Source: an uncultured virus (IMG/VR IMGVR_UViG_3300020582_000004)
Lineage: Duplodnaviria; Heunggongvirae; Uroviricota; Caudoviricetes
Direction: 5' to 3' (one strand)
DNA length: 64,000 bases
Virus record (IMG/VR): IMGVR_UViG_3300020582_000004
Below, piece after piece: positions 1 to 49,707 of the stretch (its first letter is position 1; the number at the start of each line of letters is the position of its first letter). A program made the position numbers and the translations under genes. The notes under the pieces are model-generated. The model saw only the letters and a program-made list of their open reading frames with translations, was not told the origin of the DNA and searched no databases.

Positions 1-251
1 GGCGGATCCGGCTCGCGGATCTCGACGAACGCCACAGAAGCTCGCGTGAGCCGCGCTCCGAGGGCCACGAGGGCGCTCTCGTCCGGCGCCGCGAGAACGA
101 TGGCGTGGGTGTCGTGAGGCAGGTTTCCTGGGCTACTTTCCCCTGCGGCGTGTACCAGCATCGCGGCTTGAAGGCCGCGGTCCAGGTCCTTTCTTACGAT
201 GACGTAGTGGACGAGGACGGGGGATTCTGTGGTCTGGCGGTCAGCCGACTC
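1..251 (-). CDS. Pth2-like peptidyl-tRNA hydrolase (runs off window edge; no in-frame start codon)
   Basis: Manual translation, not in the ORF track: ...ESPVLVHYVIVRKDLDRGLQAAMLVHAAGESSPGNLPHDTHAIVLAAPDESALVALGARL...EIREPDP. The YVIVRKDL / AxxxHA / IVL / IREPD pattern matches the Pth2 family. Confidence 0.7.
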
Positions 252-281
252 ACTGTAGCAACGAGCAGGTCATGAAGAGCC

Positions 282-309
282 ATGGTAGCGACGAACTCGC
301 TCTCGTCAA
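282..309 (-). promoter_or_regulatory. sigma70-like promoter (TTGACG-N16-TACCAT)
   Basis: Near-consensus hexamers; an ATG lies 8 nt downstream at 273. Confidence 0.5.
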
Positions 310-378
310 GGGCTCGAGTTGACGGCCGCTCACCTCTTCTTGAGCAGGTGGGCCGGCTCAAGATGTGAGGTGAGGTCG

Positions 379-807
379 ATGGCCGCAATCCAAAAATACG
401 CTGGACCCGCGCTCGTCGTCAAGGTAGCTCGGATCATGGCCGCCAAACCGAGTCCTCATTACCACCGGCCACGTCGCGCTTACCGGCCTCCGGGCACTCT
501 GGCGCTCAAGGTCTCTGGGCCGTATCGCGCCGAGCACCCCCAAACGAAGCTCGTTGGAAAATGGAAGGACGCCATCGAAGACGCGATCGACGACGCTCGC
601 AAGTTTGGCATCGGGGCGTGCGTGGTCTCGAGCGAGCGCATCTTGCTTCAGCGATTCGACAATGCGATGAAATACGTGCGAATGGAGCGCGATCAGCAGG
701 GAAGAGGTGAGAAAAAGGCCGACAAGCCGGATGACGATGATGACGATGATGACGATGACGACGATCTCGACGACGAACCCGGCGACGAGCCGAGCGATCC
801 GGAGTAG
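379..807 (+). CDS. hypothetical protein with poly-Asp acidic C-terminal tail
   Basis: ORF track 319..807; ATG at 379 follows GAGGTGAGG RBS; tail PDDDDDDDDDDDLDDEPGDE. Confidence 0.6.
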   Translation: MAAIQKYAGPALVVKVARIMAAKPSPHYHRPRRAYRPPGTLALKVSGPYRAEHPQTKLVGKWKDAIEDAIDDARKFGIGACVVSSERILLQRFDNAMKYVRMERDQQGRGEKKADKPDDDDDDDDDDDDLDDEPGDEPSDPE

Positions 808-813
808 TCTTTC

Positions 814-1176
814 ATGATGACCTCTTCGAGGATCGTCGCGTCTCTTTTCGTGCTCGCTCTGCTCGCGGTTTTGACGGCTTCATGTGGTCCGAGCATTTTG
901 ACGCCGCCCACGGGTCCGGGCACTTCTTACCCCTGCGGTACTCAGGGCCAGCAGTGTAGCTCCGGCGACTGTTGCCTCGGACCCGAGTACGAGGACTGCG
1001 GCGGCGATGTGCCGAATTGCCCGGCCGGGATGTGCTGCTCGAACGGCTGCAACGCGAGCGGTGACATTTTCGCTGGCTGTGCGAAGGCGCCTGTCTCTTC
1101 TACCTCTTCAACAGAAGCGCCCAAGCCCAAGACGTACGCTTCGATGCATCCGCAGACGAAGCCGAAGTCGCAGTGA
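814..1176 (+). CDS. Cys-rich lipoprotein
   Basis: Hydrophobic N-terminus ending in lipobox-like LTASC; about 10 further Cys (CSSGDCC, CPAGMCC). Confidence 0.65.
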   Translation: MMTSSRIVASLFVLALLAVLTASCGPSILTPPTGPGTSYPCGTQGQQCSSGDCCLGPEYEDCGGDVPNCPAGMCCSNGCNASGDIFAGCAKAPVSSTSSTEAPKPKTYASMHPQTKPKSQ

Positions 1177-1236
1177 AGGCCATGAGTCTGAGTACGACAT
1201 GACGTGTACTGACGGAACCAAGGTGAAGGGACAGCC

Positions 1237-1467
1237 ATGACCAAGCACGAGATCAAGCTGCCGCGATGCTCGGAGTGTGGAGGAGCCGTGAAGCTCACCG
1301 CGAAGCCCGGCCGCACGCGCGAGTATCGGCGCGGAGTGGTGCTACCTATTCCGGACGATTTCGAAACTCCCATCTGCATCAGCTGCGGTGAGGAGTTCAT
1401 GATCCCCGAGGTCTCCGAAGAACTCGATGCCCTACTCGAGTTAGCCTTTCATAAGGAGCTTGGATAA
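1237..1467 (+). CDS. MqsA/YgiT-type zinc-finger protein (antitoxin N-terminal domain only)
   Basis: CSECGG...CISCGEEF zinc ribbon with the spacing of MqsA N-domains; no HTH follows. Confidence 0.6.
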   Translation: MTKHEIKLPRCSECGGAVKLTAKPGRTREYRRGVVLPIPDDFETPICISCGEEFMIPEVSEELDALLELAFHKELG

Positions 1468-1505
1468 AGCTCTTATTAAAGGATAAAGCCCTAAACTATA
1501 ATTAG

Positions 1506-1588
1506 CGGAAGCAGGTCGACTCGAACGACAACGCTTTCACGTCGCATCCCTTAGCAGGGGAGCCCCGCGCCTTGCAGGTTCTACTTCC
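1506..1588 (-). tRNA. tRNA-Ser(GCT), 8/4 acceptor/T-stem form
   Basis: Acceptor GGAAGTAG/CTGCTTCC, D-stem CCTGC/GCGGG, anticodon loop CTGCTAA, long variable arm, T arm GTCG-TTCGAGT-CGAC, discriminator G, no encoded CCA. Confidence 0.88.
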
Positions 1589-1592
1589 GTAG

Positions 1593-1680
1593 CGGAAGAG
1601 GGAGATCTCGATTCCCAAGCGCCTCGTCGGCGCTCGCACCGTTTTCAAGACGGGCTCGGCCCCCGGCCGATTCCTCTTCC
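1593..1680 (-). tRNA. tRNA-Ser(TGA), 8/4 form
   Basis: Perfect 8-bp acceptor GGAAGAGG/CCTCTTCC, D-stem TCGGC/GCCGA, loop CTTGAAA, V-arm AGCGCC/GGCGCT, T arm GGGA-ATCGAGA-TCTC, discriminator G. Confidence 0.88.
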
Positions 1681-1691
1681 GTGTCTTGGAT

Positions 1692-1752
1692 TTGTCATTC
1701 TAATGGCAAATAACGAAGCCAAAAGCTTCAAAACTTGTCATTAAAATAGCAA
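1692..1752. promoter_or_regulatory. pair of related imperfect 18-bp palindromes (putative operators)
   Basis: TTGTCATTCTAATGGCAA (1692-1709) and TTGTCATTAAAATAGCAA (1735-1752) in an AT-rich inter-tRNA spacer. Confidence 0.4.
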
Positions 1753-1757
1753 TCCAG

Positions 1758-1843
1758 CGGAGGGAGGAGCATCGAAGCCCAACGCCTTTGACAGCGTCGC
1801 ACTGATTTCGAGTCAGGCCTGGCGCCCTGCCAGCTCACCCTCC
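1758..1843 (-). tRNA. tRNA-Ser(CGA), 8/4 form
   Basis: Acceptor GGAGGGTG/CTCCCTCC (one mismatch), D-stem CTGGC/GCCAG, loop CTCGAAA, long V-arm, T arm GGGC-TTCGAT-GCTC, discriminator G. Confidence 0.82.
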
Positions 1844-1864
1844 AAGTCTCCTGTTCGTCGTCAG

Positions 1865-1952
1865 CGGAAAGTGGAAGTCTCGATCTCCAAACCGTTTAGA
1901 GCGGTTCGCGCTGCGTTCCAGGCAGGCTCGGCTCCCAGCCGATTCACTTTCC
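1865..1952 (-). tRNA. tRNA-Ser(GGA), 8/4 form
   Basis: Perfect 8-bp acceptor GGAAAGTG/CACTTTCC, D-stem TCGGC/GCCGA, loop CTGGAAC, V-arm AACCG/CGGTT, T arm GGAG-ATCGAGA-CTTC, discriminator G. Confidence 0.88.
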
Positions 1953-2225
1953 GTGCGTGTTTTCGTTCTTTGGTTTGAGGACGCTTCCCTCATCGAACCC
2001 TTCGATGATGACGTGAGTGAACGTTCCGTCTTCCATCCAGATGCCCATGTCCATCTTCAAGATCTCGAGTGCGCGCTCACGCGACGAAGCCCAAAACCAT
2101 GCGCGCGACTCGATGCTCGATCGAAACTTCGACCAGGCCGTCACGATGTAGATGCGTGAAGGAGGCGACGATGGCATAGGCGTGCCCGAAGGTAAATTTG
2201 GAGGAAGAGGAAGCGGTGAAGTCAT
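1944..2225 (-). CDS. hypothetical protein
   Basis: ATGA overlap with the upstream ORF; its 3' end overlaps the tRNA-Ser(GGA) 5' end by 9 nt. Confidence 0.45.
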   Translation of the reverse strand: MTSPLPLPPNLPSGTPMPSSPPSRIYIVTAWSKFRSSIESRAWFWASSRERALEILKMDMGIWMEDGTFTHVIIEGFDEGSVLKPKNENTHGK

Positions 2226-2530
2226 GGCTTCATCATCTCACTTATTTCGTGGCGACTAATGAAAGCATCTCCAGCCTGAAGCGGTTGTGGGTTTTCGCCT
2301 TTATCGTTGACGATGTGCATTGTCCCGTCTGACTCTCGCCTAAGAAATCCCATGAAGGTGAGCAGACCACTCGATGCTTTTTGCAGAGCTTTGATGGATT
2401 GACGTTTCACGGCTACGTTAGTGAGTGTCATTGCGAGGTGGGGATTTTCTGGACGAACGACCAAAATAACTTCGCCATCAGGCCAGCGCTCGACATGATT
2501 AGGAATGTTTGGAAGCTTGATCTCGCTCAT
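2222..2530 (-). CDS. hypothetical protein
   Basis: Globular composition; part of an overlapping minus-strand gene chain. Confidence 0.55.
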   Translation of the reverse strand: MSEIKLPNIPNHVERWPDGEVILVVRPENPHLAMTLTNVAVKRQSIKALQKASSGLLTFMGFLRRESDGTMHIVNDKGENPQPLQAGDAFISRHEISEMMKP

Positions 2531-2882
2531 GGCTTTTCTTTTGCCTCGAGAATCCTCAGCGCTCGCGTCTCTTTCGGCATCGCTTCAGGGTGTTTTGCTT
2601 GGTCTTCTTGAACCAAACGCAGCGCAACGGTGTACGGCGTGCCCAATGCTTCTTGAACCATACGCGCGCACGCCTTGTCGTAGCTTTTGGTCATGGCTTC
2701 GCTGGAACCTTGGGCTGCTTACGCCTTCGAACGGGCTGGTTCGAGATCACAGCCGTGGGCACGATGGTGGGCGTGCCGCCGACCGTGGGAACAGGTCTCG
2801 AGTAGATCGGGCCGATGAGCGTGGTGCCGGGACGTTTGCGAGCCATGCCTGAAGCGTACCATGGCAAAATGCAAGAGTCGAC

Positions 2883-2910
2883 TTGTATTAGATCCAATTG
2901 AGGCTATGCT
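2883..2910 (+). promoter_or_regulatory. sigma70-like promoter of the TA operon (TTGTAT-N16-TATGCT)
   Basis: Hexamers end 9 nt before the toxin ATG at 2920; no SD visible. Confidence 0.5.
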
Positions 2911-2919
2911 GAAAATAAT

Positions 2920-3198
2920 ATGACCTGGCAAGTTCGTGAGCACAAAGGCGTTCGCAAGATCATCGAGTCGGCGGCGCCTGCCGTGCGTCAAAAGTACGAT
3001 CTCTGGGTTGAAACAGTTCGAGCCGGCGGCCCTCAAGCGCTTCGAGCCACACCAGGTTTTCATGATGAGGCGCTCAAAGGAGCGGCAGCAGGCTTACGCT
3101 CATCTAGACTCAATAATCGTTATCGCGTCATCTATGAAGTGCACGGACAGCTTTTGGTCGTAGACGTCATCAAGGTTACGGGACAACACGATTACTAA
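2920..3198 (+). CDS. RelE/HigB-family mRNA interferase toxin
   Basis: 92 aa, basic; PGFHDEALKG...RSSRLNNRYRVIYEV...HDY is typical of the RelE superfamily; precedes an XRE gene. Confidence 0.8.
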   Translation: MTWQVREHKGVRKIIESAAPAVRQKYDLWVETVRAGGPQALRATPGFHDEALKGAAAGLRSSRLNNRYRVIYEVHGQLLVVDVIKVTGQHDY

Positions 3199-3214
3199 AG
3201 AAAGAGAAGTTACC

Positions 3215-3472
3215 ATGGCATCCATTCATGATCACAACACGATTCCAGCTCGTACGTCTGGAACTCTAACTCCTGGTAAAGCTGTAAAGATGCTTCGTGA
3301 GCTTCATGAAATGTCTCAATCAGAGCTGGCTCGTGCCTCGGGCCTTTCTCAGCCCATTATCAGTGCCATTGAACGTGGAACCACGAACGTCGGAATCGAA
3401 CGTGCAAAGCGACTTGCAAAAGCATTGAATGTTCATCCTTCTGCTATTGCATTTGCCGATGTGCCTTCTTAA
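3215..3472 (+). CDS. XRE/HigA-type HTH antitoxin
   Basis: LRELHEMSQSELARASGLSQPIISAIERG...AKRLAKALNV; toxin-first gene order as in higBA. Confidence 0.85.
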   Translation: MASIHDHNTIPARTSGTLTPGKAVKMLRELHEMSQSELARASGLSQPIISAIERGTTNVGIERAKRLAKALNVHPSAIAFADVPS

Positions 3473-3473
3473 G

Positions 3474-4195
3474 CATGCTTATCCGGTTGCTTCCCAATGA
3501 CCATATGTACCCACTACCCACTAGGGATTGTGGTTGCTACTTTTTCGTCGATCACACAAGCACATCTCGGCATGCCTCTAGACGTGCCGCATCTGGCATC
3601 ACGAAGTGGTGCACGATCATTTCGCAACCTGCTTCGTGAATTGCTGTGAACGATTCGATGAGTATGTCATCCGGAAAAAACTCAGCCTGTTTCTTGGCGA
3701 TGGCACGCGGGTATTCGATAAACGTCTCCTCAGCGAAACGCCACTGGAGTGGTGAGCTACACGTGATGGGCACGACCATCATCGCAGCGTTGTTACCAGC
3801 ACGCTGACAAGTAGAGCAGCGAGGTCGCTTGCCAAGCTTTCTGCGCACTAACGCGAGAACGTCGCGTTCACAACCGCCACCACTCAAGCCGGTCTCGTGA
3901 CCACATTCGAGACGATAGGTTCGGTTCAACGAGAAGAATCTAGCGCCAGTCGAGTGCGTTGACACAAACACGTCACTTGCCACGGCTACAACTAGACGAC
4001 GCGGTCCGCCGAGACCGCGTTGATACCATTGCTCTCCACGCTCCCATCGCCCGCGCATCCTAAAGCAGCCTTTCGATTCGAATGTTCGCGAAGATTCGCA
4101 TCGCAAAATGTAGCATGCCGACGACCTAGCTAGAAAGCGCTACTACAGCCCGTAGTGGCTTCCACTTGGTTGGGAGAAGGAACCGGATAAGCATG
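3474..4195. repeat. segment bounded by terminal inverted repeats
   Basis: CATGCTTATCCGGTT at 3474-3488 and its exact reverse complement at 4181-4195; imperfect similarity continues inward. Confidence 0.6.
3552..4106 (-). CDS. hypothetical protein inside the inverted-repeat cassette
   Basis: Only long ORF between the IRs; LECGH...CSTC putative Zn ligands; start uncertain. Confidence 0.5.
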   Translation of the reverse strand: MRCESSRTFESKGCFRMRGRWERGEQWYQRGLGGPRRLVVAVASDVFVSTHSTGARFFSLNRTYRLECGHETGLSGGGCERDVLALVRRKLGKRPRCSTCQRAGNNAAMMVVPITCSSPLQWRFAEETFIEYPRAIAKKQAEFFPDDILIESFTAIHEAGCEMIVHHFVMPDAARLEACRDVLV

Positions 4196-4204
4196 GTATT
4201 AATA

Positions 4205-4747
4205 CTAGTTCACGAAGTCGTAGACGAAGACCGGTGTCGAGACCGAGATGAGCTGGTCAAGAAGAGGCCCGACGCGAGCCCAGCTCCCACCTGAGAGACC
4301 AGCTCCGAGCCTCGGCGCGTGTATGCTGGCTCCAAGCTCGCGCGCGAAGTCGTCCGCGTGGCGCAGGCAGAGAGCGAGCGCGGCGTACCGAATTGGCGGC
4401 CTCCGCTCTTCCTTGCCGCTGTAGTCGGCTCCGAGGCCATCTTGTGCGATCATGTTCAAGACGAAGATATCAGGCGTGACTTGAACGAGCTGCGACTCGC
4501 CGAGAGAAAAGTCGCCCGTCATCCGAAGAATGCCTTTTGGGTTGGGCTCGACCTGTGCTGGTTTTCGAACATGATGCCAGCCTCGATAGCAGCGCTCTGG
4601 TTCGGCCCAGCGGCGCGACACGGAGACCACGAAGCCGCGTCCCCAGGCGCCCACGGTGTTGCAAATATGGATGATGAGCTTCGGATCTGCGCCTTGAGGC
4701 TTTGTGGCGTCGCCTTGAAGGTACATGATTCGAGACCGAAGCGTCAT
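4205..4747 (-). CDS. macrodomain (ADP-ribose processing) protein
   Basis: YLQGDAT...IIHICNTVGAWGRGF...NMIAQ...IHAPRLGAGLSGGSW signature. Confidence 0.88.
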   Translation of the reverse strand: MTLRSRIMYLQGDATKPQGADPKLIIHICNTVGAWGRGFVVSVSRRWAEPERCYRGWHHVRKPAQVEPNPKGILRMTGDFSLGESQLVQVTPDIFVLNMIAQDGLGADYSGKEERRPPIRYAALALCLRHADDFARELGASIHAPRLGAGLSGGSWARVGPLLDQLISVSTPVFVYDFVN

Positions 4748-4750
4748 GAT

Positions 4751-4996
4751 TCACTTCTTGCGGCGCTCTTGCCAAAGCGTGACGGCTTTCTTCATTAGCT
4801 TTTTGGCAGTCTCGGGCGTGTATTCGCCAGCCTGGTAAATGGTGCGCTTGTCTAGCTCCGACTCGCGCTTGGCCGCCGTCTCGGCTTCCTCCATGCTCGA
4901 GAACTCCCACGTTCGGATGCGACCGTTTTGGCCGTCGCAGGCAAGCCAGCCGCTGTCAATGGGAGGCTCGAAGTACCAGATAGCGAAAGTGCTCAT
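4751..4996 (-). CDS. hypothetical protein
   Basis: C-terminal part of track ORF 4751..5434, starting MSTFAIWYF; fits the gap between neighbours. Confidence 0.5.
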   Translation of the reverse strand: MSTFAIWYFEPPIDSGWLACDGQNGRIRTWEFSSMEEAETAAKRESELDKRTIYQAGEYTPETAKKLMKKAVTLWQERRKK

Positions 4997-5006
4997 CGCG
5001 AAGAGG

Positions 5007-5438
5007 TCACCAATCACCGTATGCATAGTGCGCACTCGACGCATAGTAAATGCCGACGTAGCCGCAGCCCTTGGGACAGGGTTTTTCTTTCGTGAAGAAG
5101 CCGCGCGGCCAGCGCTTGCGAATTTCATTCGTGCGCGGGTTACCCAACTCGACATCGGTTGACGGCGCCCAGTTGCCGAGAATCTTTTTAGCTTCTTCTT
5201 CGTCGAACGTGACGCCGTGATCGCAGTGCTTTTGCACCTCGTCGGCGATGGCCTTGAGCCTGTCGTCCTTGATTGCTGACTTGGTGCTGGACTCCAGCTC
5301 TTCGATGCGCTTCGCGTTCTCCGCGAGGCCGCGCTGATAGCCAAGATTATAGTCGTGGGTGCGAACCTCTCCGCCGTCTTTGCACTCGGAACAAGATGCA
5401 TTGGACGTCGGCGTTTGGCACTTGATGCAAACACTCAT
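5007..5438 (-). CDS. hypothetical zinc-binding protein
   Basis: CIKC...CSEC and CPKGCG motifs; ATGA-type coupling. Confidence 0.55.
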   Translation of the reverse strand: MSVCIKCQTPTSNASCSECKDGGEVRTHDYNLGYQRGLAENAKRIEELESSTKSAIKDDRLKAIADEVQKHCDHGVTFDEEEAKKILGNWAPSTDVELGNPRTNEIRKRWPRGFFTKEKPCPKGCGYVGIYYASSAHYAYGDW

Positions 5439-5755
5439 GCTGAAGCTCCCATCTCGATTTTGACTCCGAGCCCAACGCTCTCGAGGAAGTCAGTTACGTC
5501 GCCCTCGAAGATGCTCGAGAGCATCTCGGCAATGTCTTGTCGATGAAGCTCGTTGGCCTTTCGTATCACGTCGGTGAATCTTCCGTGAGTGACTTGCGCG
5601 AGAAACATGTGCCGAGACCAAAAGAGATTGAAGACTTCTGAATCGCGCTCGGTACGGGCCACGACGAAGAAGCTCGTCGGACCGCCGAAGGCTTCGAATC
5701 GGTCGAGCCGACCATCGCGATTAGAGAACACGAGCGTCTTGATTTTGATTTCCAT
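5435..5755 (-). CDS. hypothetical protein immediately downstream of the pentamer array
   Basis: ATG at the array edge; overlaps the next gene. Confidence 0.55.
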   Translation of the reverse strand: MEIKIKTLVFSNRDGRLDRFEAFGGPTSFFVVARTERDSEVFNLFWSRHMFLAQVTHGRFTDVIRKANELHRQDIAEMLSSIFEGDVTDFLESVGLGVKIEMGASA

Positions 5756-5775
5756 GATCCACCCCTTCCATTGCC

Positions 5776-6800
5776 ATTTTCCGGCCGCTCCTCTTGACTC
5801 CTATCCATTACGTTCCCCGCCTATCCCATCCATTCCTTTTTCCGGCCACTCCGGTCCATTCCTGTCCGTTCAATTCGGATCCGGTCCGTTCCATTCCGTT
5901 TTACGGCCAATCCGATCCGGTCCATTCCTTTACTCTACGTTCCCATCCCGTCCTTTCCATTTTCCGGCCCATCCCCTCCATTCCGGCCCTGTCCGCAACC
6001 ATCCGCTCCCGTCCTTTCCATTTTCCGGCCCATCCCCTCCTGTCCTTTACGTTCCTGTCCCCACCGTTCCTGTCCGGTCGGTTCCGCTACGTTCCAATCC
6101 AATTCCAGTTTCCGGCCGGTCCAATCCCGTACCCTACGTTCCAGTCCACTTTTCTCCTCTCCACTTTCCGGCCAGTCCTGTCCATTCCGGTCCAATCGCT
6201 CCGTTCCGCTGCCATCCCTTGCTCTCGCCTCCGTTCCTGTCCTTTCCTTTTCCGGCCGCTCCCCTTCACTCCCTTCACATCCGCGCCATTCCGCTTCCTT
6301 TATTCCGGCCAATCCAGTTCGTTCCGCGTCGCTCCTGTGCGCTCCAATCCCTTACTCCGGCCCCTCCGCTCCCGTCGCGTCCCTTCCGATCGCTTCCGAT
6401 ACGGTCCATTTTCCGGCCGCTCCGTTCCGCTGCCATCCCTTGCTCTCGCCTCCGTTCCTTTCAGCCGGCCAGTACGATCCGGTCCTCGCCATTCCTGTGC
6501 GCTCCTATCCACTACGCTCCATTTTCCGGCCTATCCCATCCAATCCCATCCTTTGCTCTCGAATCCCATCCGTTCCCCTTTGCCGGCCGCTCCGGTCCGT
6601 TCGTTTCACTTCAATTCCGGTACTCTCCACTTTCCGGCCCGTACTCTCCTATCCAGTCCATATTCGCTACTTTCCATTTACCGGCCGGTCCGATCCCTTC
6701 CAGTCCACTAAATTCCAATCCATTCCGTTTTCCGGCCACTCCCGTCCGGTCCATTACGCTCCTGTCCATTCCTGTCCGTTACGCTCTATTATGCTTTGCT
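5776..6800 (-). ncRNA. putative guide-RNA array: GGCCGG(AAA)-delimited units of (GGA-NN)n pentamers
   Basis: 17 delimiters on the + strand, CCGGCC usually preceded by TTT, at 5781, 5842, 5903 (ACGGCC), 5964, 6025, 6112, 6168, 6252, 6305, 6357, 6413, 6465, 6526, 6583, 6634, 6681, 6732. Between them lie 7-15 NNTCC pentamers. The repeat structure is directly visible; the RNA function is inferred. Confidence 0.75.
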
Positions 6801-6810
6801 CGATTAGCGA

Positions 6811-7395
6811 TTACTCTGCTGCGTCAGTCACCCGCAACGAAGCATCGAATCGAATGAGAGCGCGTTTCACGTCAGAAAGAAGATCAGCGAGCGCGCTGTT
6901 CTCTTCACTGTGAGGATGGCTAATTGCGGCAAGCTGCGCCTCGGTTGCGCCTACCCAGGACCGAAGGTACTGCGCTCTGATGCGTGCGAGGGCCACACGT
7001 TCTTCCTTCGTTTTTCGAATCTCGGTGAGCGGGCGTCTACTGGCGCCGTGGGTTTTGCTTCTCGTAAAAACGAGGGCTCTCGTTTCGACTCGAATGGTAC
7101 GCCCTGGTTCACGTGTCACGGTAACCGACACGCGAACTTCGTTCATGAGACGGCCAATCTGGCTAATCCAGTATTGGCGCGCCGCTTTCTTGACGTTAGC
7201 TTCAAGATACTGCCTGAATGGGTGCGACTCATCGGCAAGCACTGCGTCGAGCACCGATTCCGGTGTCAAAACAGTGCGCCAGTCTGCACCACCGGCCATA
7301 TCCGTAAAGATGGCCCAGGCTTCTTGAAGTTGTTCTTTGGTGTACGAACCGCGCGGAGAAAACTTCATGCGCGGATGTTTATGTTTCGTCTTCAC
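6811..7395 (-). CDS. accessory protein coupled to the RAMP-like gene
   Basis: GTGA overlap with the RAMP-like stop; LTPESVLD...HPFRQYLE...KKAARQYW...RLMNEVRV motif; basic. Confidence 0.75.
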   Translation of the reverse strand: MKTKHKHPRMKFSPRGSYTKEQLQEAWAIFTDMAGGADWRTVLTPESVLDAVLADESHPFRQYLEANVKKAARQYWISQIGRLMNEVRVSVTVTREPGRTIRVETRALVFTRSKTHGASRRPLTEIRKTKEERVALARIRAQYLRSWVGATEAQLAAISHPHSEENSALADLLSDVKRALIRFDASLRVTDAAE

Positions 7396-8231
7396 GATGC
7401 GTTCGTTTCATCGCGATGGCTTGCGCCGTTTTTCTTGGACTTCGATTTCGCACCACCCTTGACGCGTTCCATTTCCTCCGCGACCTGTGCTTGCGTAACA
7501 CCTTTGGTCTTCATCGCTGTCATGAGCGCGGGCGGGATCACGAGTCGGCGTTCGGCAGACGAGCACGCCTTGATGATGCGATCGGTCTCACTTTCGTGGA
7601 TGCCCTTGATGTTGAAGAGACCGTACTCACCATTTTTCTCTGCACGCCAGTCACCAAGACCGACAAGCTCGCCCATCGCCTGAAGAGCCCAGGTCACGTG
7701 CTCCATGGGAGTCTGGTCGACGATCACCTTGACGACGATCTCGATCATCCATTCGTCGTAACGAGGCCGCGCTCGAACGTCTGGCGTGCGATTCGACCAC
7801 GAGCCGACGCGTACGACGTCGTGCTGAAGCTCGGCCTTCGCAGCTCGCTTCGTCTTTGGGTTCAGGATCGGAGAGGTGAAGCCAAGCACACGCACTGCAC
7901 GCCTCATGGCCGCAGCATTGAGCTGCTTTCGGCTCGCTGCGACAGCAGTGAGCATGCCGGCTTTGATCCAGCGGCAAGGGATGACTTCGTCGCCGCGCTC
8001 GTTGAATGCGTGGGCATCGACGAACTCGCGCTCGAGGTCCTTGGGTTCGCGTGCAGAATCGAGCGGCGTGCCGTCTTGGCGACAGCCGACCATCTTCTCG
8101 AGCATCTCGGTGAATGACTTCTGACCGAATGCGTGAACGAGCATCGGACCACTGCCGATGAGCGCGTAACACGCGGTGTGTGCTTCGATGGACGGGAGCT
8201 TCAGATTGATCGATTTCGATTGGCTTTTCAT
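7392..8231 (-). CDS. stand-alone Cas7/RAMP-like RNA-binding protein
   Basis: N-terminal LIGSGPMLVHAF, IPCRWIKAGM (compare RAMP IPGSSLKG) and C-terminal Gly-rich loop VGLGDWRAEKNGEYGLF; AGAGGA RBS before ATG 8231 (track start 8255). Confidence 0.72.
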   Translation of the reverse strand: MKSQSKSINLKLPSIEAHTACYALIGSGPMLVHAFGQKSFTEMLEKMVGCRQDGTPLDSAREPKDLEREFVDAHAFNERGDEVIPCRWIKAGMLTAVAASRKQLNAAAMRRAVRVLGFTSPILNPKTKRAAKAELQHDVVRVGSWSNRTPDVRARPRYDEWMIEIVVKVIVDQTPMEHVTWALQAMGELVGLGDWRAEKNGEYGLFNIKGIHESETDRIIKACSSAERRLVIPPALMTAMKTKGVTQAQVAEEMERVKGGAKSKSKKNGASHRDETNAS

Positions 8232-8310
8232 TGTCGTTCCTCTTTCTTGTTTCACTACATCGCAGCCCGTGGCACCTACCGAGGGCTGAGAACTTTTATC
8301 GTTTTTGTCG

Positions 8311-8586
8311 TCACTTTTTCCTATTGCATTGACAGAACAGAATATCGCCCTGAAGAACGCCCACCGTGTCGGACGGGCAGGAGTGAGGGAGAACGCTTCC
8401 TCCGATGTTGAGAGCTTCGTCTTGGCAAGCGCGTGGCTCGTGATGAGACGCCATGTAAGACGTGATCAAAGAAGAGATCAAGGCAGAGGCAATGCAGCTT
8501 AGAAGATAAACCAACAAGGTGACATGTCGTTTTTCTTCAGACATCTCTTCTTCCTTCTTTGCGGAAATTCTGTACGGATTTTTCAT
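8311..8586 (-). CDS. small single-pass membrane protein with Cys-rich C-terminus
   Basis: TM segment VTLLVYLLSCIASALISSLITSYM. Confidence 0.55.
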   Translation of the reverse strand: MKNPYRISAKKEEEMSEEKRHVTLLVYLLSCIASALISSLITSYMASHHEPRACQDEALNIGGSVLPHSCPSDTVGVLQGDILFCQCNRKK

Positions 8587-8755
8587 GATTTGCGAAACGG
8601 CGACTTGCCTCCTGAAGCAACATGGTAAGCGTTTTCCCAGCAGTCCAGAAACGTCGTCATGGGAAGCGATGGGTCGAGCAAATCAATCGCCTCGTCGGCG
8701 GCTTTACGTGCTCGCGCGTTCGGAAACAACTCCTCGACCGTAGGCTGCTTACGCT

Positions 8756-9073
8756 TCATGCGGACTTCTTTGTGACTTTGACGTCGACATCGAAACCGAG
8801 CGCATCTGCCGCTCGCAGAATCGTACTCAGAGTGAGCGAACCGCCGAACTCCTTGTGGAGCACACGCTGCACTTGCGACGGCGAGGTCTTCATCATGGAC
8901 GCGAGCGCTCGAATCGAGATGCCTCGGTTCGTTCGACTCGTTTCAAAGACATCGGCAATCTGCCGACGGAGCGAGTTCTCTTGCATCGCGACACGGACCT
9001 CCGGGTCTTTGCGAGCCAGACATATTAGCGAGACGTAAGACTCGCCGACTCGTTTTGCTTTTTTCTTTTTCAT
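8756..9073 (-). CDS. XRE-family HTH regulator
   Basis: GISIRALASMMKTSPSQVQRVL...LTLSTILRAADALG. Confidence 0.8.
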   Translation of the reverse strand: MKKKKAKRVGESYVSLICLARKDPEVRVAMQENSLRRQIADVFETSRTNRGISIRALASMMKTSPSQVQRVLHKEFGGSLTLSTILRAADALGFDVDVKVTKKSA

Positions 9074-9273
9074 GCAGGCACTTTTGCGGCTATCTGCATG
9101 TCATAGAGTTCTTTGCCTAGCTCCTCGACACGTCTTTCGTGGCTCTTGATTTCGCGCACCAAAAAGTCCATGCGTCGATTGAAGTGCTCCAAGCAATAGC
9201 CGGCTCGGTAAATAGGCTTGTCACATTGCTTGGTATTGAAGACAGTGTAATGACCGAATTCTTTGCAGTTCAT
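9070..9273 (-). CDS. hypothetical protein
   Basis: Overlapping gene chain; C..C..C..H then coiled coil. Confidence 0.5.
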   Translation of the reverse strand: MNCKEFGHYTVFNTKQCDKPIYRAGYCLEHFNRRMDFLVREIKSHERRVEELGKELYDMQIAAKVPA

Positions 9274-10367
9274 ATCGTCCCTCTTTCTTTGAAGCTTAGG
9301 AGCGTAGCGCCTTCAAACGCTTCGAGTATGTCGCGCACGACGGCATGGCCCTCGGCGATCTCGCGCGCGTCGTCACTCACTTCTTGTGCACCTGCTGTGA
9401 GGTCATCGTAGAACGCAGCTGGGTTTTGGAGGTACTCTTGCCTGTAGTTCTGGCACTGCTCGATCAGCTCTTCGGGGTATTGTTGATCAGGCCAAATGAG
9501 CATCGCGGTCTCACACCAGCGCCCTGTGCGTGCGTAGAGATCCACGATGACGTCCCAGCTCTTGAACTCGGGCGTCGGGTACGTCTGATCACCTCGTCCA
9601 GCGCCGCCCGAGCCGCCGAAGCCCTCAGGCGCATTGAACTGGATCTCGGGCCAGACGTATTGCTTTTTCTTGGGCGCGACCTTGCGCTTTTTGACCTCGG
9701 CGATGAACTTCGGGACCGCGTCTTTGAGTGAGCGAGTGGCCTTGTTGAAGACGAACCAGTGCCTCGGAGATGTGATGTCGAGGCGATCGTCCACGAGCAC
9801 GTAGTGGCCTTTGAACTTGCCGCGCGTGAAACGTCCCAGCCAAATCTTGTCGCGGAGCACGATGGGCGAGTCTTTGAAGTCGCGACAGAGCACGGGGTCT
9901 TTGGGCAGCCCGCGGACTCGGTCTCGAGCTTCTTCGGCCAAGATGCCGAGAGCCTTGAGAGCGCGCTCGAGTGAGTGTTTGGTCGAGTAGACGAGACGCC
10001 CCATGATGGGCGCCGTGCCGCCACCAATGTCGTCAAGCGCTTCGGCTTCGGCTTCGACTTTGGCTTTTGCTTCGGAGACGCGGCTGATAGGAAGTGACCA
10101 GTCGATGATGTTGTAGCTCCCCTTGGCGTCTCGCACGACCTGGAGCGAGCCGTCTTTGATGGGCATCCCGTTTTTCCCAACCAGAGGCGGGATGACTTTG
10201 CCCGTGAACTGCGAGCCCGGATGCCGAGGCGCGTCGACCTTGTTGCCGCGTCCGTCTTCCCACTTGCGCCAGTCTTTCGGTGCGCGAGAAACTTCTTTGC
10301 CAAACGCTGGCAGTTTCATTTGCCAGTCAGGCGAATAGATTGGTTTAGGTGTGTCGTCGCTCATCAA
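9270..10367 (-). CDS. hypothetical protein (365 aa)
   Basis: Long ORF with protein-like composition; the alternative frames are Arg/Ser-rich shadows. Confidence 0.7.
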   Translation of the reverse strand: MMSDDTPKPIYSPDWQMKLPAFGKEVSRAPKDWRKWEDGRGNKVDAPRHPGSQFTGKVIPPLVGKNGMPIKDGSLQVVRDAKGSYNIIDWSLPISRVSEAKAKVEAEAEALDDIGGGTAPIMGRLVYSTKHSLERALKALGILAEEARDRVRGLPKDPVLCRDFKDSPIVLRDKIWLGRFTRGKFKGHYVLVDDRLDITSPRHWFVFNKATRSLKDAVPKFIAEVKKRKVAPKKKQYVWPEIQFNAPEGFGGSGGAGRGDQTYPTPEFKSWDVIVDLYARTGRWCETAMLIWPDQQYPEELIEQCQNYRQEYLQNPAAFYDDLTAGAQEVSDDAREIAEGHAVVRDILEAFEGATLLSFKERGTI

Positions 10368-10874
10368 ATCTCCAGAAGCTGGCTCAGATCACTCGATCCG
10401 GCCGCACGGGCAGCGAAGCTCGTACGGTGTGTTGCAGTTACCGCATACGCACACTGGCAAGGCGCTCATTGCCCGCTCCATGTCACGGTGACGTGGCCAC
10501 TGCGACCTGGGAAGCCGCTTTGGCCTTTCGCGCCGCCAGTGCCAAGGAGCTTCATGAGCAGTCTCGCGGCGCGCATGCCCTTGCGACCGCGAAAGCAGGC
10601 TCTCTTGGCGAGGGTTTCGAAAGACGCGTTCGACGCGCTACGCAGAACAGCTTTCATCCGCGATCTCCGAATTCGAAACCTAAGATGAAGAATCCCCAGC
10701 GACGTGGCAGCAGCCTTCCAGGGATGTCGCGAATAACGCCGGGACGATTGCGGAACACGCCAATGCGTGGCCCGTGAAACAGAAGCATCTTCCAGAGGTG
10801 CCATGGTCCCATGTGCAGTGGCCAGCGGATCTTGCTGCCCACAATTCGAATGAGCCCGAGTCGAACCAAGAACT

Positions 10875-11105
10875 TCATTGCCCGCTCCTGATGATCGACC
10901 CGCCACTCCCATCGGTGCGGCTTTTGCAGAAGTGATCGACGAGGCCGCCTTGCCCAAGAACGTACTCGCCGCACACCGCGCAGCGCGGCATTTGATTCGA
11001 GACGCCTGAGTATTGACGGGGGCCGGCCTCGGTCATCCCGTTATCGCGGAGCCACTTGCAAGTTGCACATTCGCAGCCTGCGGTGGGAAGAGGATAGGCG
11101 CTCAT
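10875..11105 (-). CDS. small zinc-finger protein
   Basis: CECATC and CAVC...HFC motifs. Confidence 0.5.
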   Translation of the reverse strand: MSAYPLPTAGCECATCKWLRDNGMTEAGPRQYSGVSNQMPRCAVCGEYVLGQGGLVDHFCKSRTDGSGGSIIRSGQ

Positions 11106-11485
11106 GGTTTCTCCTTATTTGTATCGGCAATAAAAGCAGCAAGTGCCAGCTGACGACCTGACAGCATTGCGGCTATAGCGTAACCAGCAAAGGCGCCGTC
11201 TTCTTTGGGCATTCGACTTCGTTCCACGTTGATCTGATATACGCGTTCGTATTCGTACAGTGCTTCTCTGTACCGCTCCGCACGCGATCGTTCGACAGCA
11301 AGTTGTTTTTCAATCACGTTTCGTCCGTGCCGCACATCCTGTACTAACTGCTTTAGTTTCTCGAGCTGCACGGTGAGACAACGCTCAAGAGTGTGGAGTG
11401 GTACGTCGTCGGTGTTCTCGTGTTGAAAGTGTTCCGTAGTCACTTCAGGATCAAATTCCGTCCCGCACTTCGGACACGCGCTCAT
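11102..11485 (-). CDS. CxxC-HxxxxC zinc finger plus coiled coil (paralogue 1)
   Basis: MSACPKCGTEF...HTLERCLTVQLEKLK. Confidence 0.65.
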   Translation of the reverse strand: MSACPKCGTEFDPEVTTEHFQHENTDDVPLHTLERCLTVQLEKLKQLVQDVRHGRNVIEKQLAVERSRAERYREALYEYERVYQINVERSRMPKEDGAFAGYAIAAMLSGRQLALAAFIADTNKEKP

Positions 11486-11827
11486 GCCTTCTTCCCCGCA
11501 TCGTCGAGCACGCCGGCGGCGCCATCGCATTTGCACACGTCGCGAGCCTCACCACAGGTGTTGCAAAGTTGACCCGTGCCGTTGCAGTTGAAACATCTCT
11601 CGCACGACTCCTCGTCGTAGCAATCGGGGCAGTCCTGCCAACGCTCCACTTTGCTCACGTGCCGCCGCCTTTCTCGTGGTTGCGCTTCGCTCTCTTCTTG
11701 CGTCGCGATGCGCGTGGCGTGAGCTGATAGACGCGTTCATCAGACATGGGGCTACCCTTAATTATCTCTCGAGCAGTGAACTGCCCGATCATGAAGTTCC
11801 ACGAGACAGCGAATCTTTTAGGCCATC

Positions 11828-12139
11828 TCATCGCTCCCCCTTCCCCGTCTCCGCTCGGGCCTCGGTCTGGAGCAGGGCGATAATGGCCTCCTCGTACGGA
11901 TAGCTCTTGGCACCGTTAGGGCCGTGCCAACTCTGCCCAAAGCCCCGAGCTAACTTCGCCGCCGCCTCGATGCCCTCCCGCTTCCCGGCCGCGTGGGCTT
12001 CGTCGATCAGCTTGACGAGGTCGGTGAGGCATCCTGCACACTCGATCCGCTCAGTGCCAGCACGACATGGTCCGTTAGCGTACTCACGAGCCAGCTTCTT
12101 CGCGTCAAACTTCTCGTCCCAGAGACTATTCTCGCTCAC
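11828..12139 (-). CDS. hypothetical protein
   Basis: AGGATGG RBS-like sequence upstream; helical composition. Confidence 0.55.
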   Translation of the reverse strand: MSENSLWDEKFDAKKLAREYANGPCRAGTERIECAGCLTDLVKLIDEAHAAGKREGIEAAAKLARGFGQSWHGPNGAKSYPYEEAIIALLQTEARAETGKGER

Positions 12140-48293: not shown

Positions 48294-48725
48294 CTACGGA
48301 ATTTCTCTGAACTTTACGCCCCAGTTCGTTGCCAGCATCACGGCCTCTGCGCCGTCGAACACCGTCGAGTCTTTTTCTTCTCCGACCCACTCGAGATGCT
48401 CAGGGCCATAAGACTCCGACGTGAGAGGATTTGGTGTAACAATGCGCTTCAAGAAGTATTCACGACCGCGCATTTGAGCATAGATACGCGCTCGCTTGGG
48501 CACGACTTGCGCGGTCACGACGATCGGTTGCTCCGCTGCCGTTGCCGCTGCCCTTGCCCTTGCCGCTGCCGCTGTCACAGGCGCCTTTTCAATCGCGGTT
48601 TGCTGAGCGTTTGCTTCACGGCGCGCATTGCATGCGGGCCAGTCATGACAGCGCTGCATGGGAGGCGCTGTAAGAGGCTCGCCTGTCGCACCACAATTCG
48701 AGCATGAAGGAGTCTTCGCGCTCAA
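48294..48725 (-). CDS. hypothetical protein
   Basis: CSNC...C...C and Ala-rich linker. Confidence 0.55.
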   Translation of the reverse strand: MSAKTPSCSNCGATGEPLTAPPMQRCHDWPACNARREANAQQTAIEKAPVTAAAARARAAATAAEQPIVVTAQVVPKRARIYAQMRGREYFLKRIVTPNPLTSESYGPEHLEWVGEEKDSTVFDGAEAVMLATNWGVKFREIP

Positions 48726-49375
48726 GCCGCAACTCCAATTGGAAGGCGACCCTTGAGGTCCGCGATCACGCTGTCGTAATCGATCGTGACTTTGGTTCCT
48801 GCACCGTCATCAAGTACGACCTCGAATGGCCTTCCCTGACGAATCGCATAGTCGCATTCGGGCACGAGACCCGCGTCGACACCGGGACCCGCGTCACGCA
48901 AATCCGAGCACGATGCCCAGTAAAGCGTTTGCGGAAGATCCCAAAGCTGCTTGCTCGTAAGAAGTGAGCCCTCACCGACGTACACTGACGCGAGGCACTT
49001 ACCCTTCTGAATCCCTTCTCCGTGAGCGGTCACATGCGCGATCACGTCGGCTACAGTGCCGCCAGGCCCCTCGAGATCAAACGCCACGTGAACGCCAATC
49101 GGAATCGCTAACGCAGCAAGTCGAGCAAGGTCATTAGCCGCATCTGTAGCACCTTCTACAGCCGACGGAATCCAACCAGGATTACGCGAATGACGAACGA
49201 AATAAGCTTCCAAACCTTCCGTCAAAATCGTGTTCAGTTCGGTGGGACTCAAGTCTTCGAGGTAACGCCAAACTCCAACAATTCCCTTGGAACGAAGCAG
49301 CCTACAACCCGCAGCCGTAAGAACTTCGTCCGTATCGCAGTACATCGCATTCGGCGTTGCAGTCACAAGTCTCAC
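48722..49375 (-). CDS. DUF1906 (Rv2525c-like) glycoside hydrolase, putative endolysin
   Basis: CDT...VWRYL...LSPTE...GATDA...AIPIG...AFDLE...VYVG; GGAGGT RBS before GTG 49375. Confidence 0.75.
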   Translation of the reverse strand: MRLVTATPNAMYCDTDEVLTAAGCRLLRSKGIVGVWRYLEDLSPTELNTILTEGLEAYFVRHSRNPGWIPSAVEGATDAANDLARLAALAIPIGVHVAFDLEGPGGTVADVIAHVTAHGEGIQKGKCLASVYVGEGSLLTSKQLWDLPQTLYWASCSDLRDAGPGVDAGLVPECDYAIRQGRPFEVVLDDGAGTKVTIDYDSVIADLKGRLPIGVAA

Positions 49376-49707
49376 GAGACACCTCCTTTGATGAGCGAAC
49401 GCGCATAGCACAATGCGAAGCGCGTTACTTTCCAATGCGACACGCTTCCATCGGGCTCCGTCACAGCGCAGGTTCGATCACCATCGAGATTGAGGCGATC
49501 AGCTGCGAGTCGCGCAGCAAGACTCGGGAAACTCGATTCAACGACTTCGACCGGGTGATTCTCGAACGAAACCAAAAACGCCATGTTCCCTCCTCACGTA
49601 AAATCAATGATGCGGGGCGTACACGATCAAATAAGACACCACGATGGCAAGGCACGCAGCAAGGAGCACCGGAAGCGCGTGCACTCGCAAAGTCGAAACC
49701 AAATACT

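What the first reader, a model, noticed from the sequence alone, without database searches (positions are those of the whole stretch)
1506..1952. Complete set of four serine tRNAs, all in the non-canonical 8/4 fold
Seen: anticodons GCT, TGA, CGA and GGA, enough to read all six Ser codons, and I found no other tRNA in the window. All four have an 8-bp acceptor stem with a 4-bp T-stem (canonical is 7/5), a 5-bp D-stem with a 5-nt loop, a long variable arm, G73 and no encoded CCA. Two have an ATCGAGA T-loop instead of TTCGA. Established: 8/4 tRNA-Ser and allo-tRNAs have been described in some bacteria and phages (Mukai et al. 2017), and SerRS recognises the variable arm rather than the anticodon. 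Inference: this is a full replacement Ser-tRNA pool whose altered shape evades a host defence that attacks tRNA-Ser, such as an anticodon nuclease or an acceptor-end-modifying toxin. Standard tRNA finders may score these poorly.
Basis: partly seen in the sequence, partly recalled or inferred. Interest (0 to 1): 0.74.

Follow-up and report, generated by a model that had tools for sequence, protein, structure and literature searches.

The report
Phage serine tRNAs with 8/4 fold
Four real serine tRNA genes in a soil phage have a rare but already published shape that standard gene finders miss, and they belong to a larger phage tRNA region instead of forming a serine-only set.

Summary
Window 1506-1952 (minus strand) carries four tRNA genes with anticodons GGA, CGA, UGA and GCU. 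Each has a long variable arm and G73, and none encodes CCA. ARAGORN and Rfam report none of them.

The 8/4 fold is supported by covariation in 11 related sequences. The eighth acceptor pair forms in 11 of 11. The extra T-stem pair that a 7/5 fold needs forms in 0 of 11. Copy B (CGA) is irregular, with a U.U mismatch and a 6-nt T-loop.

The window is a new large soil phage. An identical metagenome contig (L010) runs 772 bases past the window's left edge and holds three more tRNA-like genes. So "Ser only" is a window-edge effect.

The same four-anticodon 8/4 Ser set recurs in other contigs (L009, L012). In L009 it sits inside a mixed tRNA array with an HNH endonuclease ORF.

This is the (8/4) tRNA-Ser class of Mukai et al. 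2017, already reported in phage tRNA clusters. This scan has met it on other DNA before. Nothing here ties it to a defence aimed at tRNA-Ser.

Verdict: real, a new member of a known kind, of modest interest.

The parts
1865..1952 (-). tRNA-Ser(GGA), copy A: 88 nt, 8-bp acceptor stem, 5-bp D-stem, 6-bp bulged anticodon stem, long V-arm, 4-bp T-stem, T-loop AUCGAGA, G73, no CCA
   Evidence: MFE is the 8/4 cloverleaf at -33.6 kcal/mol. Model R1 scores it 91.9 bits. Covariation.
1758..1843 (-). tRNA-Ser(CGA), copy B: 86 nt, irregular, with a U.U mismatch at acceptor pair 7 and a 6-nt T-loop UUCGAU. Possibly impaired.
   Evidence: Best cloverleaf -37.9 against a non-cloverleaf MFE of -42.1. Cloverleaf pairs have probability <=0.03. 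R1 scores it 74.3 bits.
1593..1680 (-). tRNA-Ser(UGA), copy C: 88 nt, 8/4 fold, T-loop AUCGAGA, G73, no CCA
   Evidence: MFE is the 8/4 cloverleaf at -44.9. R1 scores it 91.6 bits.
1506..1588 (-). tRNA-Ser(GCU), copy D: 83 nt, 8/4 fold, T-loop UUCGAGU, G73, no CCA. Starts 4 nt after the end of copy C.
   Evidence: MFE is the 8/4 cloverleaf at -37.0. R1 scores it 82.3 bits.
1681..1757 (-). AT-rich 77-nt spacer between B and C, with a terminator-like hairpin (1730..1714). It may split the cluster into two transcription units (inference).
   Evidence: Consensus scan. That scan found 7 terminator-like sites against 3.3 expected in the region, so the evidence is weak.
2920..3472 (+). Neighbour, with no link shown: a RelE/HigB-like toxin ORF (2920-3198) and an HTH_3 antitoxin-like ORF (3215-3472), about 1 kb from the cluster
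   Evidence: phrog_1213 RelE-like toxin, E=1.7e-8. TIGR02385, E=8.1e-6, below its cut-off. HTH_3, E=1.9e-16.

Best explanation
The four elements are real phage genes for serine tRNA isoacceptors of the (8/4) class. Their 12-bp acceptor/T helix is split 8+4 instead of 7+5.

How they most likely work (inferred):
- They are transcribed from the minus strand.
- Host RNase P and 3' processing enzymes trim them, and the host CCA-adding enzyme adds CCA.
- Host SerRS charges them through the long variable arm, G73 and the conserved G1-C72, G2-C71 and A3-U70 pairs.
- They are then used in ordinary translation of all six Ser codons during infection.

They are the Ser part of a larger tRNA region in a new large soil phage, and the window cuts through that region. 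The 8/4 shape is an inherited trait of a tRNA-Ser lineage that travels in phage tRNA arrays. It is tolerated because SerRS and the ribosome accept it.

Copy B (CGA) may be decaying. Its codon UCG can also be read by the UGA copy.
For: Shown here:
- Four well-folded cloverleaves.
- On 11 related sequences, 97.9% of cells pair, 18 of 26 pairs change on both sides, and 0 of 500 shuffles reach this.
- 8/4 over 7/5: pair 8:81 forms in 11 of 11, and pair 65:81 in 0 of 11.
- G1-C72 and G2-C71 are invariant in 11 of 11, and A3-U70 forms in 10 of 10 scorable rows. G73 is present in 4 of 4.
- Phage context of the window: RNase H, DHFR, SNF2 helicase, endonuclease VII, Dam-type methylase, FtsK-like ORF, and many ORFs with no match.
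- Contig L010 is 100% identical to window 1-2469. It carries three more tRNA-like genes beyond the window edge.
- Complete GGA/UGA/CGA/GCU sets, all 8/4, occur in L009 (also L014, L015) and in L012. Partial sets occur in L016 and L001.
- Those contigs look like phage. L016 has a terminase large subunit (E=1.2e-151). L009, L015 and L001 have HNH endonucleases among the tRNA genes.
- All six Ser codons are used in 25 confident ORFs (315 Ser of 4920 codons).

From the literature:
- (8/4) tRNA-Ser occurs in phage tRNA clusters, and SerRS accepts 8/5, 9/4, 8/4 and 9/3 shapes (PMC5389517, sections 13 and 16 and passages read).
- 8/4 tRNAs inserted Ser efficiently in E. coli (same paper, abstract passage).
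Against: - No expression or charging data. No RNA run is listed among holders, which is not evidence either way.
- Copy B is predicted to misfold, although UCG is the commonest Ser codon in the window's ORFs (31%).
- The host is unknown, so codon-supply arguments cannot be tested.
- The neighbouring tRNA-like genes in L010 have abnormal anticodon arms. Not everything in this region need be an ordinary translational tRNA.
- Mukai et al. report that some allo-tRNAs near toxin-antitoxin systems were inactive in translation. A RelE-like/HTH pair lies about 1 kb away.
Confidence: 0.75

Rival explanations
1. Counter-defence pool. The host carries a toxin or nuclease that disables its own 7/5 tRNA-Ser. 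Examples would be a VapC-type enzyme that cuts within NGA anticodons, or an enzyme acting on the acceptor end. The phage's 8/4 tRNAs, with a longer bulged anticodon stem and a longer acceptor stem, escape recognition and keep Ser decoding going.
For: - Phage tRNAs are known to evade tRNA-targeting defences (PMC10264068 title and passages; PMC11555353 search listing and abstract start).
- In mycobacteriophages, the Ser NGA tRNAs are reported as avoided because VapC cuts inside the anticodon (passage). This phage encodes all three NGA isoacceptors, and only in the 8/4 form.
- In the related arrays the other long-arm tRNAs (Leu) are ordinary tRNAs by Rfam's model, and only the Ser genes are 8/4.
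- The bacterial genome with a related 8/4 tRNA that I examined for this uses a 7/5 tRNA-Ser (L025 in G002).
Against: - The anticodon loops are standard, so a nuclease that reads the loop would still see its site.
- The set is not Ser-only.
- No such toxin, and no host, has been identified.
- The shape is spread over unrelated phage contigs. That fits inheritance as well as it fits selection.
Confidence: 0.12
2. Non-translational tRNA-like RNAs. The genes yield regulatory or decoy RNAs linked to toxin-antitoxin modules or mobile DNA, as Mukai et al. proposed for some allo-tRNAs. They would not be working Ser tRNAs.
For: - Allo-tRNA genes often lie near toxin-antitoxin systems, and some were inactive in translation (PMC5389517 section 16).
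- A RelE/HigB-like toxin and HTH pair lies at 2920-3472.
- Copy B and the three neighbouring tRNA-like genes in L010 are irregular.
Against: - A, C and D have intact stems, G18G19, a UCG core in the T-loop, U33, A37 and G73.
- The anticodons are exactly the four needed for six Ser codons, and the same four recur in L009 and L012.
- Inactive allo-tRNAs are described as carrying stem-destabilising changes. A, C and D have none.
Confidence: 0.07
3. Host-derived set. The unknown host itself uses 8/4 tRNA-Ser, and the phage simply copied host genes.
For: Mukai et al. report (8/4) tRNA-Ser in proteobacteria and rumen Clostridia as well as in phages.
Against: - The strict pattern found no Ser-anticodon 8/4 gene among representative genomes of 185,579 species. 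It found two Solirubrobacterales allo-tRNAs (GCC) and two chance hits.
- In a sample of 121 genomes of that order, 11 carry 8/4 tRNAs, and 0 of 16 genes read have a Ser anticodon.
- One such genome has a 7/5 tRNA-Ser.
- The pattern is strict, so more distant host genes could have been missed.
Confidence: 0.08

Closest known systems
[quoted passage not shown]
   Same: 12-bp acceptor/T helix split 8/4, long variable arm, G73, lengthened anticodon stem, Ser anticodons, location in a phage tRNA region, a toxin-antitoxin-like pair nearby, missed by standard finders.
   Different: - All four isoacceptors are present side by side.
- The D-arm is a 5-bp stem with a 5-nt loop. The described allo-tRNA D-arm is a long stem with a tetraloop.
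- A and C have a purine at position 20 and an A54/A60 T-loop.
- One copy (B) is irregular.
- I could not see the paper's supplementary figures, so I cannot say whether complete four-gene sets are shown there.
Missense-type (8/4) allo-tRNAs of bacteria
   Same: The same scaffold, down to a shared 47-column pattern of the 5' half. Solirubrobacterales genes (L005, L006, L011) score 84-88 bits with the model.
   Different: Those carry non-Ser anticodons (GCC, CAG, GAG, CGG, GAC). They are single or scattered chromosomal genes. The window's genes carry Ser anticodons and form a cluster in a phage.
Bacterial tRNA-Sec (selC)
   Same: 8-bp acceptor stem, long variable arm, 6-bp anticodon stem, charged first by SerRS (as cited in PMC5389517).
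   Different: tRNA-Sec is 8/5 (13 bp) and reads UGA with a UCA anticodon. Here the helix is 8/4 (12 bp), the anticodons are for Ser, and no Rfam family matches even at E<=10.
Phage tRNAs that escape anticodon nucleases through anticodon-loop changes (van den Berg et al. 2023, PMC10264068)
   Same: Phage-encoded tRNAs that differ from host tRNAs.
   Different: There the changes are in the anticodon loop. Here the loops are standard and the difference lies in the stems.

Membership tests
(8/4) tRNA-Ser / (8/4) allo-tRNA (Mukai 2017) | 12-bp acceptor branch made of an 8-bp acceptor stem and a 4-bp T-stem | tested here: met
   Pair 8:81 forms in 11 of 11 sequences, including one G-C to A-U change. 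The 7/5-specific pair 65:81 forms in 0 of 11. A, C and D fold this way as their MFE. B does so only with a U.U mismatch and a 6-nt T-loop.
(8/4) tRNA-Ser / (8/4) allo-tRNA (Mukai 2017) | Long variable arm and discriminator G73 or U73 (SerRS identity) | tested here: met
   The variable region is 14-19 nt with a paired stem in all four. G73 is present in 4 of 4.
(8/4) tRNA-Ser / (8/4) allo-tRNA (Mukai 2017) | Anticodon stem longer than 5 bp | tested here: met
   6 pairs with one bulged base on the 3' side. Pair 26:45 is G-C in 11 of 11, and pair 27:44 is C-G in 10 of 11.
(8/4) tRNA-Ser / (8/4) allo-tRNA (Mukai 2017) | Long D-stem with a tetraloop, like tRNA-Sec | tested here: inconclusive
   5-bp stem with a 5-nt loop in all four. 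A and C can form a sixth pair, leaving a 3-nt loop. No tetraloop as such.
(8/4) tRNA-Ser / (8/4) allo-tRNA (Mukai 2017) | Serine anticodon (this sets tRNA-Ser apart from other allo-tRNAs) | tested here: met
   GGA, CGA, UGA and GCU at positions 34-36 of 7-nt loops, with U33 and A37.
(8/4) tRNA-Ser / (8/4) allo-tRNA (Mukai 2017) | Pyrimidine at position 20 (Figure 1 legend: (8/4) tRNA-Ser with Y20 is also classed as allo-tRNA) | tested here: inconclusive
   The base after G18G19 is C in B and D, A in copy A and G in copy C. So 2 of 4 meet it. The numbering is my own reading of the loop.
(8/4) tRNA-Ser / (8/4) allo-tRNA (Mukai 2017) | Serylated and active in translation | not testable with these tools
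   No expression or charging data are available.
tRNA-Sec (Rfam tRNA-Sec; selC) | UCA anticodon and 13-bp (8/5) acceptor branch | tested here: not met
   The anticodons are for Ser, the branch is 8/4, and Rfam gives no match at E<=10.
Canonical tRNA (Rfam RF00005) | Reaches the family's gathering score | tested here: not met
   0 of 4 in the window. 0 of 12 related 8/4 Ser genes in L009, L012, L016 and L001. ARAGORN finds 0 of 4 here and 5 of those 12.

The most novel reading that the evidence does not exclude
The 8/4 architecture is what lets this phage carry the three NGA-anticodon Ser tRNAs that other actinophages are reported to avoid. Its longer bulged anticodon stem and 8-bp acceptor stem would make the tRNAs poor substrates for host toxins that disable 7/5 tRNA-Ser. 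The odd-looped tRNA-like genes next door would act as decoys for anticodon nucleases. On this reading, the recurring all-8/4 Ser set in phage arrays is a conserved counter-defence module and not a frozen accident.
Probability: 0.1. Interest if true: 0.75.

Novelty: new member of a known kind. Interest (0 to 1): 0.3.

Why it matters
These genes are invisible to ARAGORN and Rfam. Automatic annotation would therefore report this phage as lacking any Ser tRNA, and phage tRNA censuses and codon-supply analyses would be biased in the same way.

The case adds a clean example in which all four Ser isoacceptors of a phage have the 8/4 shape. The same four-gene set appears in at least two other contig lineages. 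This suggests that a distinct tRNA-Ser lineage circulates in phage tRNA arrays.

The sequence-level kinship with missense-type allo-tRNAs of soil Actinomycetota hints at where those odd bacterial tRNAs come from. None of this changes the known picture. It extends it.

Tried and rejected
- Whole genome: none is held for this window.
- D-arm pattern in viral contigs: 3 loci, of which 1 is real (L001) and 2 are chance (L002 a terminator hairpin, L003 coding).
- Strict 47-column pattern:
  - 0 loci in viral contigs.
  - 4 loci in genome contigs, 2 of them chance (L004, L007).
  - 10 loci in metagenome contigs. L010 is the same element, L013 and L017 are chance, and 7 are real.
- Deposited phages: no megablast match for window 1-12000. 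No blastn match for the tRNA cluster. The helicase is only about 25% identical to actinophage helicases.
- Relatives of two nearby proteins in viral contigs: none usable.
- AATGACAA repeat in the B-C spacer: 5 matches in the window, and 11 of 100 shuffles reach that. Dropped.
- The ORFs flanking the cluster (1237-1467 + and 2222-2530 -) share only 'EIKLP' (E=0.24). Not related.
- Pfam, NCBIfam and PADLOC gave no credible assignment for the small ORFs next to the cluster, apart from the RelE-like/HTH pair.
- Orthology of isoacceptors across lineages is inconclusive. Mean anticodon-arm identity is 0.66 for the same anticodon in another lineage and 0.59 for the same lineage with another anticodon. 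For the rest of the molecule the figures are 0.60 and 0.62.
- Sequencing runs: no RNA holder is listed. Contigs of 4 soil DNA runs laid on 1400-2300 showed no variant letters or indels, and some of those runs may be the source of this DNA.
- Earlier notes of this scan: none for this genome.

Full report
**1. What is there**

Window 1506-1952 carries four tRNA-shaped genes on the minus strand:
- A: 1952..1865, anticodon GGA.
- B: 1843..1758, anticodon CGA.
- C: 1680..1593, anticodon UGA.
- D: 1588..1506, anticodon GCU.

Each ends in G73 and is followed by CT, so none encodes CCA.

Standard finders report none of them:
- ARAGORN finds no tRNA in the whole window.
- Rfam finds nothing at gathering score in the window.
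- Rfam finds nothing at E<=10 in 1400-2100.

**2. Is it more than chance, and is it 8/4?**

Evidence from the four genes alone:
- The unconstrained minimum-energy folds of A, C and D are cloverleaves. Each has an 8-bp acceptor stem, a two-base linker, a 5-bp D-stem, a 6-bp anticodon stem with one bulged base, a paired variable arm, and a 4-bp T-stem with a 7-nt loop.
- Fold z-scores are -2.74 to -3.39. At most 2 of 200 shuffles fold as well.
- A forced 8/4 fold beats a forced 7/5 fold by 3.8-5.1 kcal/mol in all four.
- A pattern of the invariant columns of the 5' halves hits the window 4 times and 100 shuffles 0 times.

I aligned the four genes with seven distinct relatives from other loci (alignment A2). 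Under the 8/4 structure:
- 97.9% of 282 cells pair.
- 18 of 26 pairs change on both sides.
- 0 of 500 shuffles reach this, and no slid register comes near.

The deciding pairs are clear. The eighth acceptor pair (columns 8:81) forms in 11 of 11 sequences (GC 9, AU 1, GU 1). The fifth T-stem pair that a 7/5 fold needs (65:81) forms in 0 of 11.

**3. Copy B**

Copy B is irregular:
- It has a U.U mismatch at acceptor pair 7.
- Its T-loop has 6 nt. The alternative is a C.C mismatch in the T-stem.
- Its best cloverleaf (-37.9 kcal/mol) loses to a non-cloverleaf fold (-42.1).
- Its cloverleaf pairs have probability 0.03 or less in the ensemble.

The CGA genes of the relatives L009 and L012 show no such deletion in the model alignment. 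Contigs from four soil runs show no variant at this site, though some of those runs may be the source of this DNA.

B may be decaying. By standard wobble rules, the UGA copy can read UCG. Against that, TCG is the commonest Ser codon in 25 confident ORFs (98 of 315 Ser codons).

**4. Context**

The window looks like part of a large, new phage:
- It has many short co-oriented ORFs.
- It encodes RNase H/Rv2179c-like, DHFR, an SNF2-type helicase, endonuclease VII, a Dam-type methylase and an FtsK-like ORF. Most ORFs have no match.
- No deposited phage matches at the DNA level.
- The helicase is about 25% identical to actinophage helicases.
- Two nearby proteins have no usable relatives in the viral contig collection.
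- No SerRS, CCA-adding enzyme or tRNA repair enzyme was found.
- A RelE/HigB-like toxin ORF with an HTH partner lies at 2920-3472.

**5. The set is not Ser-only**

Metagenome contig L010 is 100% identical to window 1-2469 over 2,469 bases, and it runs 772 bases beyond the window's left edge. In that stretch:
- ARAGORN calls two tRNAs, and Rfam's tRNA model calls a third.
- All three are 7/5 cloverleaves with abnormal anticodon arms: a 6-nt loop, a 10-bp stem with a 4-nt loop, and a 9-nt loop.

The Ser cluster lies at the very edge of the window. "No other tRNA" is therefore a window-edge effect.

**6. Relatives**

I built a covariance model from A2 (R1). It finds only the four genes in the window. 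In other contigs it finds more:
- L009 (also L014 and L015) has Ser GGA, UGA, CGA and GCU in a row, all 8/4. They sit inside an array with Gly, Arg, Arg, Met, Ile, Leu and Gln genes and an HNH endonuclease ORF.
- L012 has tRNA-Pro followed by Ser GGA, UGA, CGA and GCU.
- L016 has Ser UGA and GCU next to a terminase large subunit (E=1.2e-151).
- L001, an IMG/VR viral contig, has Arg, Ser CGA, Ser GCU, Tyr and His genes.

Rfam's tRNA model reaches none of these 12 related 8/4 Ser genes. ARAGORN reaches 5 of the 12. In L009 the Leu genes, which are also long-arm tRNAs, are ordinary by Rfam.

Whether the isoacceptors are orthologous across lineages is unclear. The CGA anticodon arms are 82-94% identical, but overall the sequences group neither by anticodon nor by lineage.

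**7. Bacterial relatives**

Among representative genomes of 185,579 species, the strict pattern hit two Solirubrobacterales MAGs plus two chance sites. Those bacterial genes are 8/4 long-arm tRNAs with a GCC anticodon.

Genome G002 had six matches at E<=0.01 that are not its tRNA-Ser, some of them truncated or irregular. Its own tRNA-Ser(GGA) is an ordinary 7/5 tRNA.

In a sample of 121 genomes of that order, 11 carry such genes. Of the 16 genes read, none has a Ser anticodon (GCC 5, CAG 5, GAG 4, CGG 1, GAC 1).

So the bacterial kin are missense-type allo-tRNAs. The Ser-anticodon sets sit on contigs that carry tRNA arrays, and those with enough flanking DNA to judge look like phage.

**8. How it most likely works**

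Shown:
- Four tRNA genes with an intact 8/4 architecture in three of them.
- Invariant G1-C72 and G2-C71, with A3-U70 formed in every scorable row, plus G73 and a long variable arm.
- Standard anticodon loops with U33 and A37.
- A phage setting.

Inferred:
- Host enzymes process the transcripts and add CCA.
- Host SerRS charges them.
- They decode all six Ser codons during infection, as the Ser part of the phage's tRNA complement.

Support from the literature (PMC5389517, sections 13 and 16 and passages read):
- SerRS recognises the variable arm and discriminator, and it accepts 8/5, 9/4, 8/4 and 9/3 shapes.
- 8/4 tRNAs inserted Ser efficiently in E. coli.
- (8/4) tRNA-Ser occurs in phage tRNA clusters.

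That G2-C71 and A3-U70 are SerRS identity elements in E. coli is my recollection. It comes from no call.

**9. The counter-defence idea**

Phage tRNAs that escape tRNA-directed defences are established (PMC10264068, title and passages; PMC11555353, search listing and abstract start).

One passage is pertinent. Mycobacteriophages are said to avoid the Ser GGA, UGA and CGA tRNAs because VapC toxins cut inside the anticodon, and to carry only Ser GCU. This phage carries all three NGA isoacceptors, and only in 8/4 form. That is compatible with shape-based escape.

Nothing here tests the idea, however:
- The anticodon loops are unchanged.
- The host and any such toxin are unknown.
- The set is not Ser-only.
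- Simple inheritance of a phage tRNA-Ser lineage explains the same facts.

The bacterial Schlafen paper (PMC13056530, passages seen) reports cleavage in the anticodon arm of Lys, Met and a phage Ala tRNA. It mentions no Ser tRNA in those passages.

I put this reading at about 0.1.

**10. Comparison and novelty**

This is the (8/4) tRNA-Ser class of Mukai et al. 2017. All the structural features I could test are met, apart from the tetraloop D-arm and Y20 in two copies.

It is not tRNA-Sec: the anticodons are wrong, the branch is 12 bp and not 13 bp, and Rfam gives no match.

Earlier follow-ups in this scan report the same class on other DNA. One is a four-gene 8/4 Ser set in a soil bacterium's tRNA array, and several are phage cases. 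I did not test those claims on their own DNA.

I did not see the supplements of the 2017 paper, so complete four-gene sets may already be shown there.

**Verdict:** real, correctly described, a new member of a known kind. The special-purpose interpretation is not supported.

Noticed in passing
L010:2470-3241 (DNA just left of window position 1, same element): Three 7/5 tRNA-like genes with abnormal anticodon arms: 2569-2640 has a 6-nt loop (CACUAA); 2698-2776 has a 10-bp anticodon stem with a 4-nt loop (Rfam tRNA, 43.8 bits); 2800-2874 has a 9-nt loop and ARAGORN calls it Tyr GTA. They recall the irregular tRNA polycistrons that Mukai et al. describe from soil.
   Followed up: partly
L005, L006, L011, L018-L041 (Solirubrobacterales MAGs and a related metagenome contig): 11 of 121 sampled genomes of this order carry 8/4 long-arm allo-tRNAs. 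Of the 16 genes read, the anticodons are GCC 5, CAG 5, GAG 4, CGG 1 and GAC 1, and none is for Ser. Genome G002 had six matches at E<=0.01 that are not its 7/5 tRNA-Ser, some of them truncated or irregular. The 2017 paper lists only Clostridia, Proteobacteria and Acidobacteria.
   Followed up: partly
window:1758-1843 (-): The CGA copy is the one irregular gene, yet its codon TCG is the commonest Ser codon in 25 confident ORFs of the window (98 of 315, 31%).
   Followed up: partly
window:2920-3472 (+): A RelE/HigB-like toxin ORF followed by an HTH_3 antitoxin-like ORF, about 1 kb from the tRNA cluster. This echoes the reported closeness of allo-tRNA genes to toxin-antitoxin systems.
   Followed up: partly
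window:1865-1952 and 1593-1680 (-): Copies A and C have the T-loop AUCGAGA, with A at positions 54 and 60. From recall, this resembles the T-loop of eukaryotic initiator tRNA. Relatives have A, G or U at position 54.
   Followed up: no
window:1504-1953 (-): Three of the four genes have C at position -1, which could pair with G73 in the precursor. All four are followed by CT. These could bear on RNase P and 3'-end processing.
   Followed up: no
window:1237-1467 (+): A 76-aa ORF with two CxxC motifs (zinc-ribbon-like) ends 39 bases from the cluster. Its only hit is a weak one to a dual-CXXC small-protein family (E=1.3e-4, below the cut-off).
   Followed up: partly
window:37757-38278, 48722-49435, 63409-63996 (-): The Rv2179c-like exoribonuclease, Rv2525c-like domain and FtsK/SpoIIIE ORF, together with weak helicase matches to actinophages, hint at an actinobacterial host. 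The window's GC content is 56%.
   Followed up: no
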